64,000 nt of DNA from assembly GCA_017499595.2 (NCBI GenBank), contig CM038999.1, forward strand, positions 1,550,001 to 1,614,000, written 5' to 3'. Below the pieces are notes generated by a model. It made no database searches. It saw only the letters and a program-made list of their open reading frames with translations, and was not told the origin of the DNA. The position numbers and the translations under genes were made by a program. This document shows, piece by piece, positions 50,029 through 56,247 of this stretch. The first letter of the stretch is position 1. Each line of letters starts with the position of its first letter. The DNA comes from Psilocybe cubensis. Taxonomy: Eukaryota.

Positions 50029-50233
50029 GATGATCGTGTATGAGAGCTTAAACTGAAAGCATCTGGCGGATCGTTTCAATAGCCAATATCACGTGACTGA
50101 TGAGGGCTGAGGCAACCTGGGTTTCCGTATTAACTCCATCAAACTGCATCCGTTTCTTGGGCGATGTGAATCGGACACACCTAGGGTGTTGGGGCTTTAT
50201 ATTTCTTGTCTTCTGCTTTCATGTATCCCTAGG

Positions 50234-51213
50234 ATGCTGTTTGTACCAGCAGCTCCTCTACTTTTGCTCTGCCTCTCCTCCCATGTTATTGCTCAGTGGA
50301 TTGAATACTCCGACAATGGACTCGCAACGATGACGCACTATGAGCTTCCGTCAGGATACGTTGCATCATGCGGATGTACTCCTTCCAGCACGAATTACCC
50401 TACAGCGGCACTTTCGCAGATGGCGTATGGTAGCAGTACTAATTATGGTACGCCTGTATTACTCACATCTCGCATTCGCGCATACATGGTTATTAACTGG
50501 TGAAATCATGGCAGGTCCTGGCTGTGGACGATGCTTCAATTTAACGCTCATTAATCCGGTCACTGCGACCCCCCCTTTCATCCCTCCTGTTGTAAAATCT
50601 ATCGTTGTGAAAATTACGGACCTTTGCCCTCTCTCTCAAACTGGATGGTGCTCCGGGACCACCTCCAAACCCAACACGTCCGTGACCAATATCAACGGTA
50701 CAGAAAAATATTGAATCTTGCACGATTATACAGTGCTGGTGCTTTTCTGAATTTTGATCTTGCATACCCTTCAAAGGCTATACCTGATGATTTCTTTCCT
50801 TCTGATGAGGCTCTTTATGGCTACAAGGCATGTAACAGAATCTTCTTGGCCCACATTTACCTTACCTCCTACGAATTGTAAGGACTTTGGTGTCTGGAAC
50901 ATCTCGTACCAGAGCGTGCCGTGTTTGAATGACTGGGCTGGGTCCGATAATGCTGCTGCTTTGGGCAGTGTCAAAGCTTTGGGTACCGGTGCTTGCTGCC
51001 CAGCTGAGCCTTCTCTCTCGAATACCTCGAACGTCTGTCCTTCTTTTTCTGATCAAAACGGGATCCCGTATGTTCCTCAATTCTCATCAAGGTACAAACT
51101 AATTATATCGTGAAAACAGGCCTGACACTAGCACAAATTCCTCCGCAGCACTCACCATGCAATGGCCCGTCGGCGTACTATTTTTATTGGTATTGCTTTC
51201 AAATATTCAGTGA
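50234..51213 (+). CDS. Secreted GH45 subfamily-C/expansin-like double-psi beta-barrel protein with probable GPI-anchor signal
   Basis: Signal peptide MLFVPAAPLLLLCLSSHVIA; ASCGC, TAALSQMAYG, GPGCGRCFNLT, VVKITDLCP, NFDL; hydrophobic C-terminus WPVGVLFLLVLLSNIQ*. Confidence 0.75.
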
Positions 51214-51496
51214 ATATACCCCTTGTGTATACTACAAATATGTAGACCTCAGTTTGTATCTGACATTCTCATGGGTTACATCTGCCAATGTATTATTGAT
51301 AATTATACATACCCATGCGATATGGATTGGAGGTGGAGCGGAAAAAGATTATATACACTAATAAATCTAGATCTTTCGTGATTTCATAGCACAATCAAGA
51401 TTCAACGCCTTTATGCAACCGTTATGCCGATTGTCCTATGCGATGCGCCTGAAAGGAAGCATTGGTGGTTTTGTCAAGACTGATAACATTGTAATT

Positions 51497-53094
51497 TTAC
51501 TTCACCAAGTCGTCATTGGCGACTTGACTATAGCGAGCTCGCATGCCGCTGGGAAGAAATCGGGAAACATATCGCAGACCTCCTATCCAGACAAAGGCAG
51601 ACACAACAACTCCAACGATAATGAGGACGAAAAATAAATCAGCAAATTGTGTCCCTGGGGGAATAATGGCCGTCTCCGACGCAGAAGTAGCCTCTGTGGA
51701 CACAGGGGTTGATGCATTGGCTGCTTCAGTCTCTATCTTCGCATTTACTGGGGTCTTAAGGGCTTCAGGTGTGCCACCAGGTATATCCTGTTAATAATAA
51801 TATGGATTTATTGATACGAAATTTTGGGGCACTCAGAGAACGTTTAAAGTTCAGCATGAAGAGGTACCTCATTGCCATCGGCATCCTTGGTTTTCTCAAC
51901 AGGAAGCTGAAAGAAAGTTTATGTAACACTGGAAAAGAAAAAATGAAGAAAATATCGCACCTCTCCAGAGTCTGCAATAATGACATCCTCCTTGGGACGA
52001 TCACCTCCACCCTTAGGCACGTTCTCTGTAATAGATTGAGCAAAGAAACACATGAAACCCAAAAAAGAAAACAAACCAATCTGATGGACAACGTCCATGC
52101 CATCTATAACTTTCCCGAAGACAACCTGATGGTAAAGGCGTGAATAAATTGCGCTGCAGAGCTTGAGAAGAACTTACGTGTTTGCCATCGAGCCAGCTAG
52201 TAACAACAGTGCAGATAAACTATGAGGAGATGGTTAAATCGGGAGCAAATGAGCAATGCCCTAGAGACTGACGAATTGAGAACCTATATGACCAGCATAA
52301 GACATATGAAATATATTGATATTAGTCTAGGTAATACATACCGTTGGTATCCTTGCCTGCGTTTGCCATTGAAAGTGTACCTGGTCCAGTGTGGCGAAGT
52401 TTGCTGAATGAAGGGATAGTGAGAAGGGTTCATTCATTGGTAAGAGCTAGGCATACAAGTTTTCGTCCGCAAAGCGGTCACCATAGATCGACTATCCCGA
52501 AAATAGGTAAGTCATGAATCATTTCAAAGTATAAGTGATATACCTTGCCACCTGTTCCATCGCCACGAGCTAATAGGGGTTTAGCTTTTCTATGATACAT
52601 GTCTGCTAAGTTCAAACTCACTAAAATCACCACCCTGGATCCTATCATTTTGAAAACAAGGTCGTGAGTCGGCGGTTAACGTTTATAAGGATGTCAACGA
52701 ACATGAAGTCTTTGATGACGCGGTGGAATTTGGAGCCTTTGTAACCATAACCAAGTTCTTCGCCGTTTTTGTTTTTGCCAGTAGCAAGAGCGCGGAAGTT
52801 CTCCACTGTTTTGGGGACAGTCTAAACACAATGATTAGAGGAATAGACAGAGACCAATAGAGTCAACATACGCCACCGTAGAGACCCATGGTAACTGTAC
52901 AGAATTCAGCAAACATTCAAACAGCAAAACTCAAATTAACATTACGCACTACGACCAAGGTCCTTGTCGCCATGCTTGATATCAAAGTAAACGATATTGG
53001 TGATTTTGGGGCCCTTCGCAGCTTCTGCGGACTGAGCGCAGAAGAAGGCGACGACAGAGACAACAACGAAAGCGAGGGAAACACGGCCGAACAT
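51497..53094 (-). CDS. CYPB: ER cyclophilin B (peptidyl-prolyl isomerase); two predicted C-termini (stop 51844, HAEL; or stop 51497, TM-anchored)
   Basis: Signal peptide; [76 protein letters not shown]. Confidence 0.93.
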
Positions 53095-53433: not shown

Positions 53434-56041
53434 CTACCGACCAACTAACTTTTCGAGGTCATAACCACCAGAAATTTGGAATTCAGATGCACCCATACTG
53501 GCCATAACACCACCCTGCTTGATAAGGCGACCCTGTGCTCGTACGATGGCTTGCATACGTTTCTCAGCTTCACCACTGTGACTTTTCTCCCAATCTTTTA
53601 CACCCTCTGTTTTGGCTTTATTACTGGCCCGGTGAGTTTTGGTTTGGGCATCATTTTTCTTTTGTGATGGAGCATGGGCAACCTTGACGGATTTTGGAGC
53701 ATCTCGCAGAGCAAAGGCTTTTGCCAAGTGTCCCATATGAAGATTACGGATGTGGAAAATATGTTTTTCACTTGAAGGGTGCGTGGCGTAAGCTCGCATG
53801 TGTGATAAGAAAGCCTTTCGTGCCATGAGTGCATTCTGCGAGAATAATATTGATTGAGCGAAAATAGTTGATAAATATTGAAATCAACTTACCTCTTTAT
53901 TCTGCAGAACCCACCGTTCGAACGCAAGTTGAACCTCTGTCGAACGTTGTTCGTATTCAGACCCTCTTCCTCCAAATCCCGATCGAAGAAGGTCTTCGAC
54001 AGCAACTCCAATCAGCGACACCTTTGAACTGTCGCCTGTCTCTTCGCCTTGCATCTTGTTCTCCGCCCACTTGACCCATTCTACTTCGCTCGGCGCAACG
54101 AAGGCCCAAGCTTCACCACCCTTCCCGGCGCGTGCAGTGCGTCCCACACGATGGACGTACTCAGTAACGCCACCTTCTGTCGGGAGATCGTACTGAACAA
54201 CTGCGCGAACTAGAGGCAGATCTAAACCGCGAGCTGCTACAGAAGTACAGAAAAGAATAGAGGAATTTTCTTGAGCAGGTTTGTTCTTCTTGCCTTGGCT
54301 ACCCGTAAAACCTTTAAGGGCAGCAAGACGTAGATTGTTGGGAAGGGAACCGTGGAGTCGGAAAACTGTGACATCGGGTAAAAGTGAACATTGTGCTTCG
54401 ACCTTGTCAGGATATACTTTAGATGTGGATTTCACATCCCCATCTTCGCTGCTCTCATCGCTCTCATCGTCATCTTTTCCTGCCAATGAATGAGGTTCGG
54501 GACCGGCCATTGAAGACCCAGCCAACAAATTCCAATGGAAGTCAACTGAATCTGTGCAACTGAGAAAGACAATGATTTTGGCTCCTCGTCGCACCTGAGT
54601 TTCTGCAACGAGTTTCCGCAGGAGTGCGATAAGAGAAACTAACCGCAGTTTCAGTGGTACCGTAACGTATTTTTGCGAGAGTTGTGAAGGCGGGGTAAAT
54701 GTTTCGGGATTGGATCCAATGACAAGGGATTTTTCGGGATTCGACGACGTTGTATTGACGTTTTCGTCTTTGTCAAATTCAGTTGCTTTTACCATGAGAG
54801 GATTCGAGAGAGCAGTCCCTGCAAGTTTCTGGACATCCTCCCTAATAGTAGCGGAACATAGGATCGTCCTTCTACGTCGTTCCCAGTCCCACCCACCGAC
54901 TTCATTTGTTTTCCCCTCCTCCATTGCCTGCTTAGCCATTCTGCGCCGTCCGTCAAGACCTTGAATAATACCGGTAATCGTCTCCTCAAACCCAAGTTCC
55001 ATGAGCTGATCTGCTTCATCCAACACCAACCATCGACATTTCCCCACGTTAAATGAGGAAGTATTTTGTAGATGGTCAAGAAGGCGACCAGGTGTCGAGA
55101 CTAGAATGGGGAGGCCTTTACGTAGCCTTGCTTTTTCATGTGTACGCGTTGCTCCACCTACAAGAAGGCCGGAGACTAGCCAGCGTGTTAGTTGAGTCGA
55201 GGTGTCTGGTGAGGTGGTCGATGAGTCCTCAGCACGCAAACGCATTTTCAGAATAGCTTCTAGTACATCAGAGATTTGCTTGGCCAATTCTCGAGTGGGG
55301 GCAATGATTATTGCAAGAGTCCCTATTGATCTATCAATATAGGACAGTGAGCTGAGAGGGAGTAGATCTTGGATGATGGGAAGAAGGTAAGATAGTGTCT
55401 TTCCGGAACCAGTTTGGGACTGAAGAAAAACATCTCGAGAACTTTTTTCGGGTAAAGTCGACAAGAGAGCAGGTAAGGAAGCACGTTGAATGGCTGTGGG
55501 TTTGTGAATGTCCATTTTTGAGGATAGATGCGATATGAGCAAAGGGTTAAGACCAAGTCCAGAAAATGTTGAGGAATCTAGAGGAGCATTGCTTGGTGCA
55601 GTGATTTTGGAGGGTTCAATTGGTCGAGGGGCGGGGGCATCCACTTTGGGATTGTATGAAAATAGAGAAGATATTATCTGAGTAGGTCGTGAAGGCTGCA
55701 CAGGTTGAGCAGCACGCGCCTGTTTCGATGAGTTAGGTTGTACGGTGGGCACCTGCGCGGTAGACTTGGGCTGTGCGCTTTCAATTCGTGCCTTTTTGGA
55801 AGGGCGGTCATTCTCCGAAGATTTAGATACAAGCACGGAAGGCGTTGATTTCTCCTCTGTTCGAGACTTGCGTTTTAATGTACGCTTCTCTTTTAATCTT
55901 TTCAAATAATAAGCAGGGCTACACTTTTTTGATTGAATGAGAAAAATACCTTTCCGTCCATCTTCCACCTTTCTTCCCCAAGCCGGCCTTGATAGATACG
56001 CTATCGTCGGTTGCGATGTTGAGAACAAGGTCATCGTCCAT
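53434..56041 (-). CDS. DBP7: DEAD-box RNA helicase Dbp7 (60S biogenesis)
   Basis: [69 protein letters not shown]; start [19 protein letters not shown] at 56041, followed by an intron. Confidence 0.92.
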
Positions 56042-56247
56042 TCTGCGAGTCTTGAGGGCGCAGAAATAGGCAGTCCCAATCTTAGGGACTTTCTATGCCC
56101 AAAAATGGCTTGAGTCTGACAAAAGATGCTGACTTATTATGTAATAATTCGAGTCAGGTTGAGGTTTTCGTTCTTTGTGTGAAGTGGCAGTTTAGTCGTT
56201 ATTGCAGGGCAATTCCAAACTCTCTCTTCTTTCTAAGTAACTTTTGT

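What the first reader, a model, noticed from the sequence alone, without database searches (positions are those of the whole stretch)
51497..51870. Cyclophilin B intron-retention switch: soluble ER form (HAEL) versus membrane-anchored form
Seen (minus strand): unspliced read-through gives ...[11 protein letters not shown] (stop 51844-51846), an HDEL-type retrieval signal. The same bases GAG|GTACCT form a donor at 51867. Splicing to the TTAACAG acceptor at 51788 joins in frame a 96-aa exon with an A/T/P/E-rich stalk, a TM helix ([21 protein letters not shown]) and a short tail [14 protein letters not shown] containing a YxxV sorting-like motif. Inference: one gene makes a luminal foldase and a type I membrane isomerase that may traffic beyond the ER, with the retention signal encoded inside the intron.
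Basis: partly seen in the sequence, partly recalled or inferred. Interest (0 to 1): 0.75.

Follow-up and report, generated by a model that had tools for sequence, protein, structure and literature searches.

The report
Soluble or membrane-anchored fungal cyclophilin B
In this mushroom, and apparently in many other fungi, one gene for a protein-folding helper of the endoplasmic reticulum makes either a soluble form with a retrieval tag or a membrane-anchored form, depending on whether one short intron that itself encodes the tag is removed.

Summary
The gene is cyclophilin B; a database protein from Psilocybe cubensis equals the 308-aa spliced form. Leaving intron 12 (51867-51788) in gives 219 aa ending VPLHAEL; splicing it gives a stalk, a transmembrane helix and a 25-aa YxxV tail. 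One RNA-type run holds both forms; a second holds only the unspliced one. Among related loci with the short tail, 68 of 69 keep the downstream membrane exon. The donor valine codon is GTA/GTG in 98 of 98 loci, against 24 of 100 elsewhere. Ascomycetes show the same short/long pairs, apparently at another intron phase. Two additions: a conserved AATAAA inside intron 12 (19 of 31 lineages; shuffles 1.0) suggests competing intronic polyadenylation, and a 13th intron over the long-form stop would give a third tail (KRIA) seen in relatives. Localisation, regulation and poly(A) use are untested. Both isoforms already sit in sequence databases; ten literature searches found no description of the switch.

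The parts
53020..53094 (-). Start codon and hydrophobic N-terminal signal-peptide region (about residues 1-25), shared by all isoforms
   Evidence: Hydropathy peak at residues 1-26; cleavage site not computed
51868..53094 (-). Coding exons 1-12 (introns of 50-61 nt) encoding the cyclophilin domain, Pfam PF00160 at residues 37-196
   Evidence: Gene model equals database protein P0003; 8 joints covering 9 of the 11 introns in both RNA-type runs; Pfam E 1.2e-49
51788..51867 (-). Intron 12 (80 nt, GTACCT...TTAACAG): the switch; kept in the soluble form, removed in the membrane form
   Evidence: Spliced joint and unspliced contig in run X2, unspliced contig in X1; median 81 nt in 31 related lineages
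51844..51867 (-). Short-form tail VPLHAEL plus stop, encoded inside intron 12; its first codon (GTA) is also the splice donor
   Evidence: donor codon GTA/GTG in 98 of 98 related loci
51807..51812 (-). AATAAA hexamer inside intron 12, 19 nt before exon 13: candidate poly(A) positioning element lying in the branch-point region
   Evidence: present in 19 of 31 related lineages, 15-28 nt before the exon in 18 of 19; shuffles mean 1.0, max 5 of 1000
51497..51787 (-). Exon 13 (96 aa): luminal stalk, transmembrane helix, cytosolic tail ending DDLVK
   Evidence: homologous exon in 68 of 69 related loci
51575..51637 (-). Transmembrane helix (residues 263-283), followed by arginines on the predicted cytosolic side
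   Evidence: Hydropathy; F277, G281, G282 and R288 invariant in 23 of 23 aligned long forms
51521..51532 (-). YSQV, a YxxPhi sorting-like motif followed by an acidic patch
   Evidence: Y298 invariant and YxxPhi in 23 of 23 long proteins; 29 of 31 metagenome lineages
51449..51500 (-). Candidate intron 13 (52 nt) overlapping the long-form stop; its removal changes the end from LVK to LVKRIA
   Evidence: Sequence; no joint here in X1/X2; 7 of 23 related long proteins end [KR]R[IVM]A; Laccaria has both endings
51436..51448 (-). Candidate last mini-exon giving RIA and a stop
   Evidence: the same ending is predicted in 9 of 31 related lineages

Best explanation
This is the fungal ER cyclophilin B gene with a conserved alternative 3' end. 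SHOWN: the mRNA exists with and without intron 12, and the two reading frames give (a) a 219-aa signal-peptide protein ending HAEL and (b) a 308-aa protein with the same catalytic domain on a stalk, a membrane helix and a short tail. The retrieval tag lies inside the intron and its first codon is the donor, so tag and anchor exclude each other (about 0.9 that both proteins are made and kept by selection). INFERRED, choice of form: the donor is weak (GTRCCY, held by the Val-Pro codons), and an AATAAA sits where the branch point should be. Splicing therefore competes with cleavage/polyadenylation near the 3' splice site and with simple retention, much as secreted and membrane IgM heavy chains are chosen (about 0.55 that intronic polyadenylation makes a real share of the short form). 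INFERRED, function: the short form is a luminal prolyl isomerase returned from the Golgi by the HDEL receptor (about 0.85). The long form is a type I membrane isomerase with its active site in the lumen, sorted by its YxxPhi/acidic tail among Golgi, endosome and surface (about 0.55), where it would act on cargo after ER exit. A second small intron toggles the last residues of the tail (about 0.7 that it is used in this species in some condition).
For: Both forms in run X2 and the unspliced form in X1, with upstream introns spliced; no joints in DNA-type runs X3/X4. The long form equals database protein P0003. Laccaria short (P0034) and long (P0035, P0037, P0012, from short Logan contigs, read as transcripts) are identical up to the junction. 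65 of 69 loci pass a fixed test for an in-frame acceptor plus TM exon; 3 of the 4 misses have the exon just under threshold. In 31 lineages a TM+YxxPhi ORF lies downstream on the sense strand in 29, on the antisense strand in 1, and further downstream in 0 of 26; the best frame-blind acceptor is in frame in 28 of 31 against 15.3 expected. The donor codon is GTA/GTG in 98 of 98 against 24 of 100 other Val codons. AATAAA is in 19 of 31 introns against a shuffle mean of 1.0, and 5 in 27,733 nt upstream. Ascomycete pairs with a shared core are annotated, e.g. Pyricularia 207/292 aa and Alternaria 208/298 aa. Catalytic-site residues are present and the best solved relative is human cyclophilin B. 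HAEL binds a human KDEL receptor like KDEL (PMC2140024).
Against: The spliced joint in this species rests on one contig of one run of one study, with 27 letters on the short side; X1 shows no spliced contig; the runs' RNA status is a guess by the tool. There is no protein-level evidence for either form. No transcript ending at the intronic AATAAA was found: no poly(A) run within 200 nt of the short stop in any of the 100 loci, all six mRNA-like metagenome contigs run on into the TM exon, and L058 has its poly(A) after it. 12 of 31 lineages lack the exact hexamer. In Coprinopsis, poly(A)-site use hardly changes between conditions (PMC12230235), which argues against a regulated poly(A) switch. 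One structural paper states a need for D or E at position -3 of retrieval signals (PMC8248988), which HAEL lacks. Most ascomycete tails end in K-x-Phi-A (67 of 110) rather than the mushroom YxxPhi-acidic ending, so one trafficking route for all is not shown. The DNA scan required the short tail, so it cannot show how often the switch is lost.
Confidence: 0.72

Rival explanations
1. Same two proteins, but the short form comes only from intron retention in full-length mRNAs. The conserved AATAAA is a deliberately weak branch-point sequence (it contains the TAA core) that keeps splicing partial, not a poly(A) signal.
For: Unspliced contigs cross the acceptor into exon 13 in X1 and X2. Six of six mRNA-like metagenome contigs retain the intron and continue; L058 is polyadenylated after the TM exon; L042 keeps intron 12 with intron 13 removed. 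The hexamer lies 15-28 nt before the exon, where branch points are expected (recalled). Retained introns are the commonest alternative event in Coprinopsis, 67.5%.
Against: A weak branch point could take many sequences; the exact canonical poly(A) hexamer recurs in 19 of 31 lineages, more often than after the long-form stop (7 of 31). Assembled contigs extend as far as any read supports, so they cannot exclude shorter molecules.
Confidence: 0.4
2. The membrane form stays in the ER or cycles only between ER and cis-Golgi. The anchor holds the isomerase near the translocon or membrane clients, and the tail (especially the K-x-Phi-A ending) is an ER retrieval or export signal, not a post-Golgi sorting motif.
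For: K at -4 in 89 of 110 and A at -1 in 86 of 110 ascomycete long forms, matching the intron-13-spliced mushroom ending. Yeast Cpr4, a separate TM cyclophilin, is reported in the ER (PMC1618848).
Against: KRxx / KxPhiA is not the canonical KKxx or KxKxx retrieval motif (recalled). The tyrosine motif is invariant in 23 of 23 mushroom long forms while the stalk diverges.
Confidence: 0.35
3. The TM exon is a separate small gene, a gene-prediction artefact or splicing noise, and only the HAEL form matters.
For: Some ascomycete annotations call the downstream exon a separate gene (P0370, P0409, P0354). The spliced joint here is in one contig only. A survey of 16 fungi used only short forms for Neurospora and Gibberella.
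Against: Exact GT-AG joint in RNA contigs; uninterrupted long ORFs on 1-2 kb contigs from several other species; selection on the donor codon; in-frame acceptor in 28 of 31; exon 13 here has no methionine before the TM helix.
Confidence: 0.04

Closest known systems
Fungal cyclophilin B orthologues (Group G of Pemberton 2006, PMC1618848; Neurospora NcCyp3, Aspergillus AnCyp6, yeast Cpr5)
   Same: Signal peptide, cyclophilin domain and an H-x-E-L end; NcCyp3 and GzCyp4 end HVEL at 207 aa in that paper's supplement.
   Different: The passages and 8 supplement files searched show no membrane isoform for this group. Sequence databases do hold both forms, once named 'variant 2'. I recall that the curated Neurospora entry lists a long membrane and a short luminal isoform; this comes from no call and could not be checked.
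Budding-yeast membrane cyclophilins Cpr4 and Cpr8
   Same: Secretory-pathway cyclophilin with a transmembrane domain or membrane binding (PMC1618848).
   Different: Separate genes there; here one gene gives both forms. Orthology of the long form to Cpr4/Cpr8 was not tested.
Secreted versus membrane IgM heavy chain (recalled)
   Same: A donor inside the coding region of the soluble form; the soluble tail and a poly(A) signal lie in the intron; splicing adds a membrane exon.
   Different: Here the intron is only about 80 nt, the soluble tail is a retrieval tag rather than a secretory tailpiece, the hexamer lies in the branch region, and regulation is not shown.
Fungal targeting changes by alternative splicing: cryptic peroxisomal signals (Freitag et al. 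2012, title seen only in a reference list) and yeast PTC7
   Same: A short intron decides a targeting signal or a membrane anchor.
   Different: In PTC7 the retained intron is the anchor; here the retained intron is the soluble tag and splicing brings the anchor.

Membership tests
Cyclophilin-type PPIase (PF00160) | Pfam match above the curated cut-off | tested here: met
   169 bits against cut-off 21.7, residues 37-196
Cyclophilin-type PPIase (PF00160) | Catalytic and cyclosporin-pocket residues (Arg, Phe, Met, Gln, Ala, Asn, Phe, Trp, Leu, His; roles recalled) | tested here: met
   R90 F95 M96 Q98 A136 N137 F148 W156 L157 H161 present and identical in the alignment to human cyclophilin B
Cyclophilin-type PPIase (PF00160) | Measured isomerase activity | not testable with these tools
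   Needs an enzyme assay
Cyclophilin B / fungal Group G | N-terminal signal peptide and closest similarity to cyclophilin B | tested here: met
   Hydrophobic N-terminus (no dedicated predictor run); top solved relatives are cyclophilin B, E 1e-80; no tree built
KDEL/HDEL-receptor clients | C-terminal tetrapeptide that fits the Prosite pattern [KRHQSA]-[DENQ]-E-L | tested here: not met
   HAEL has Ala at -3; pattern as quoted in PMC2140024
KDEL/HDEL-receptor clients | Functional retrieval by the receptor | tested here: inconclusive
   In human cells HAEL binds ERD21 like KDEL and -3 accepts all residues but Pro; another paper states a need for D/E at -3; no fungal test found (0 papers)
Type I single-pass membrane proteins | Signal peptide, one C-terminal hydrophobic helix, basic residues after it | tested here: met
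   Hydropathy scan shows only these two peaks; R284, R288, R295, R297 follow the helix. Sequence-level only
IgM-type soluble/membrane switches | Both RNA forms exist and share upstream exons | tested here: met
   Run X2; Laccaria pair
IgM-type soluble/membrane switches | The soluble form ends at an intronic poly(A) site | tested here: inconclusive
   Conserved AATAAA, but no transcript ending there was found and contigs cannot show ends
IgM-type soluble/membrane switches | Ratio of forms is regulated by cell state | not testable with these tools
   Only contigs of two RNA-type runs were available
YxxPhi adaptor-sorted cargo | Tyr-x-x-hydrophobic in the cytosolic tail, conserved | tested here: met
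   23 of 23 proteins and 29 of 31 lineages; adaptor binding itself untested

The most novel reading that the evidence does not exclude
Mushroom-forming fungi and filamentous ascomycetes each built, at different intron phases and so perhaps independently, a switch that hides the ER retrieval tag of cyclophilin B inside an intron. In mushrooms one AATAAA serves as both poly(A) signal and branch point, so binding of the cleavage or the splicing machinery decides between a luminal ER foldase and a post-ER membrane foldase, and a second stop-overlapping intron sets the sorting tail. This would be a regulated IgM-like switch in fungi and a folding catalyst working beyond the ER in hyphal secretion.
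Probability: 0.2. Interest if true: 0.8.

Novelty: new variant of a known kind. Interest (0 to 1): 0.55.

Why it matters
Fungal cyclophilin B is treated in the survey read here as a soluble ER protein. If a membrane form is made across mushrooms and moulds, then knock-out, over-expression and cyclosporin studies, and strain engineering for protein secretion, have been dealing with two or three proteins while assuming one. It also gives a small, conserved, testable case of functional intron retention or intronic polyadenylation in fungi, where it is an open question how much retention is noise. Gene models currently pick one form or split the exon off as a separate gene.

Tried and rejected
No run on record as RNA was listed; X1 and X2 are read as RNA only because they carry splice joints that the DNA-type runs lack. 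Contig depths in X2 (242.6 upstream, 138.8 unspliced, 47.7 spliced, 55.2 downstream) would fit a minority spliced form and early termination of the short form, but they are one figure per contig and the downstream contig includes the neighbouring gene, so they are not used as evidence. The other-phase control was uninformative (30 and 61 of 69), because any upstream AG reaches the same ORF; one search replaced it. A YTRAY branch-point test does not discriminate: 7 of 31 for intron 12, but also only 3 of the window's 11 constitutive introns. The dinucleotide-shuffle control for AATAAA returned no output; a mononucleotide shuffle was used. The two unrelated chance loci also had GTA at the pattern's Val codon, a very small counter-note. 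The YxxPhi count on ascomycete tails included helix residues and was discarded. A search of this genome for other HAEL ends (24 matches) showed no other clear ER protein. Of 50 HDEL/HEEL-type matches, 30 were fetched; 1 had a hydrophobic ORF above threshold downstream and it did not look like the same layout. Earlier scan notes held nothing on this gene. No ascomycete genomic DNA could be fetched, so their intron phase rests on proteins only. No structure or complex prediction was run. Literature searches found no description of the switch; most subscription papers are outside the library, several lists were cut (20 of 63, 25 of 31, 25 of 51, 15 of 48), and the Coprinopsis supplements were only listed, not read.

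Full report
Observation. The minus strand from 53094 carries a 12-exon cyclophilin gene with introns of 50-61 nt. After ...DGNE the DNA reads on as VPLHAEL and a stop at 51846-51844, giving 219 aa. The first Val codon is also a donor (GAG|GTACCT, 51867). Joining it to the acceptor at 51788 removes 80 nt and adds a 96-aa exon, giving 308 aa. The hydropathy scan finds two peaks only: the N-terminal signal region and residues about 260-284. A search with the last exon found two longer database proteins holding it unchanged, both labelled Psilocybe cubensis; one (P0003) equals my 308-aa model. The domain is PF00160, the best solved relatives are cyclophilin B, and the usual active-site residues are present (roles recalled).

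RNA evidence. Five runs hold the stretch, none on record as RNA. Four were laid, all as contigs. X1 and X2 (one study) show 8 joints covering 9 of the 11 predicted core introns; X3 and X4 show none. X2 has a contig that skips exactly 51788-51867 (27 letters on the shorter side) and another that runs through the intron. X1 has only the unspliced path. So both RNA forms exist, but the spliced one rests here on one contig. Depths were not used as evidence.

Conservation in proteins. A search with residues 170-308 gave 32 proteins among 180 candidates: 24 long forms (including the two Psilocybe entries) and 8 short ones. Long forms are named from Galerina, Panaeolus, Crepidotus, Agrocybe, Mycena and Sphagnurus, and several come from 1-2 kb contigs with an unbroken ORF, which I read as spliced transcripts (inference). 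In 23 aligned long forms the stalk diverges but F277, G281, G282, R288 and Y298 are invariant, and all 23 have YxxPhi. One 90% cluster holds the Laccaria bicolor 218-aa form ending HAEL and 302/305-aa forms identical up to the junction. Rust-type proteins show the same short tail; a long form was not seen for them.

Conservation in DNA. A scan of metagenome contigs for the short tail returned 100 loci; 93 hit the cyclophilin core, 2 were unrelated and dropped, and 5 without a hit but with the same tail were kept. Of the 98, 69 had at least 600 nt downstream. 65 of 69 passed a fixed test for an in-frame acceptor and TM exon; of the 4 misses, 3 have the exon just under threshold and 1 (L082) lacks the intron's 3' part. 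The 69 fall into 31 groups at 80% identity. In these, a TM+YxxPhi ORF lies on the sense strand in 29, antisense in 1, and further downstream in 0 of 26; a frame-blind acceptor score, trained on the window's 11 core acceptors, picks an in-frame site in 28 of 31 against 15.3 expected. The pattern left the third base of the donor Val codon free, yet it is A or G in 98 of 98 loci, while 76 of 100 other Val codons in six mRNA-like contigs end in C or T; the codon before it ends in AG in 98 of 98 (no control run for this). The loci are related, so these are not independent draws, and the scan cannot see genes that lost the short tail.

Beyond mushrooms. A profile search listed 150 proteins, of which 13 had both a signal-like start and a C-terminal helix by my thresholds; named ones include three lichen-associated ascomycetes, Cyberlindnera, Geosiphon and Amanita. 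A search with one ascomycete form gave 796 hits, 120 listed. Clusters hold same-core pairs such as Pyricularia 207/292 aa (the long one named 'variant 2'), Alternaria 208/298 and Gaeumannomyces 208/286. They part at PEE-G|IHxEL. In 107 of 108 long forms the first divergent residue has a G-starting codon (background 52%), which fits a phase-1 intron. The mushroom intron is phase 0 and lies 7 codons before the stop. This suggests intron sliding or two origins; it is inferred from proteins only.

First, AATAAA at 51812-51807 inside intron 12. With intron ends set by hand, it occurs after the short stop in 19 of 31 groups, 15-28 nt before exon 13 in 18 of them; shuffles give a mean of 1.0 and at most 5, the upstream gene bodies hold 5 in 27,733 nt, and the 200 nt after the long stop hold it in 7 of 31. 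It may be a poly(A) element, a weak branch point, or both. Against a poly(A) role: no locus shows a poly(A) run near the short stop, all six mRNA-like contigs continue into the TM exon, and L058 is polyadenylated after it. Second, a 52-nt candidate intron (51500-51449) overlaps the long-form stop and would give the end KRIA. It is not spliced in X1/X2 contigs, but 7 of 23 related long proteins end [KR]R[IVM]A, Laccaria has both ends, 21 of 31 groups have GT at the stop and 9 predict such an end. Ascomycete long forms end K-x-Phi-A in 67 of 110, so this may be the older tail signal (inference).

Mechanism. Shown: two RNA forms, two open frames, and selection on donor, acceptor, helix and tyrosine motif. 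Inferred: the short protein is a luminal foldase retrieved through HAEL. In human cells HAEL binds one KDEL receptor like KDEL, and position -3 accepts all residues but proline (PMC2140024, passages); another paper states a need for D or E there (PMC8248988, passages). The long protein is a type I membrane isomerase; its YxxPhi and acidic tail suggest sorting beyond the ER (motif function recalled), but an ER-anchored role is a live rival. The choice is probably a competition between a weak donor and 3'-end formation or retention. Regulation is unknown; in Coprinopsis poly(A)-site use varies little between conditions (PMC12230235, passages and sections 11 and 15; supplements listed only).

What is known. 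The survey of 16 fungi defines the cyclophilin B group by its signal peptide, uses 207-aa short forms for Neurospora and Gibberella, and mentions membrane cyclophilins only as separate yeast genes, Cpr4 and Cpr8 (PMC1618848, passages and a term search of 8 supplement files). Passages of PMC10906886, PMC5430845, PMC13162259 and PMC9426557 did not describe the switch. Ten searches found no paper on it, within a library that lacks most subscription journals. Both isoforms are in sequence databases, and I recall, without a call behind it, a curated Neurospora entry with long and short isoforms. It works like the secreted/membrane IgM switch (recalled); membership of that kind is open because the intronic poly(A) site and regulation are not shown.

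Verdict. A real, deeply conserved alternative 3' end, likely functional, partly visible in databases and not found described. New variant of a known kind; interest 0.55.

Noticed in passing
window 51500-51436 (-): Candidate intron 13 over the long-form stop, with a mini-exon giving the end KRIA; it matches endings of related transcript-derived proteins and the K-x-Phi-A end of ascomycete long forms.
   Followed up: partly
window about 50100-51120 (+): Convergent neighbour with an expansin-like (EXPB1_D1) domain and an intron at 51068-51119; RNA contigs of X1 and X2 run from the cyclophilin gene into it, so the 3' regions may overlap (a contig across two genes shows no single transcript).
   Followed up: partly
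window 53434-56133 (-): Upstream DEAD-box helicase with an SPB4-like C-terminal extension, ending about 340 nt before the cyclophilin start.
   Followed up: partly
window 52273-52283, 52622-52641, 52872-52894 (-): The gene has very short exons of 11, 20 and 23 nt; letters of the 11-nt exon are seen between two joints in RNA contigs. One database model (P0002, 274 aa) skips exons 8-10 and loses catalytic residues, probably a prediction error.
   Followed up: partly
L082, after the short-form stop: This locus lacks the 3' part of intron 12 and the start of the TM exon, unlike near-identical L061 and L088; a natural deletion or an assembly error.
   Followed up: no
protein P0009 (Panaeolus model): The model reads VPLR and then continues into the stalk, which suggests a second donor a few codons into intron 12 or a prediction error.
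   Followed up: no
proteins P0205, P0068, P0193: Signal-peptide cyclophilins with a C-terminal helix also occur in a Saccharomycotina yeast, in Geosiphon and in an unnamed lineage; whether they have a soluble isoform was not tested.
   Followed up: no
PMC9426557: A homokaryotic deletion of Neurospora NCU01200 could not be obtained. I recall this number as the cyclophilin B gene; the paper calls it a CPR1 homologue, and the identity was not checked.
   Followed up: no
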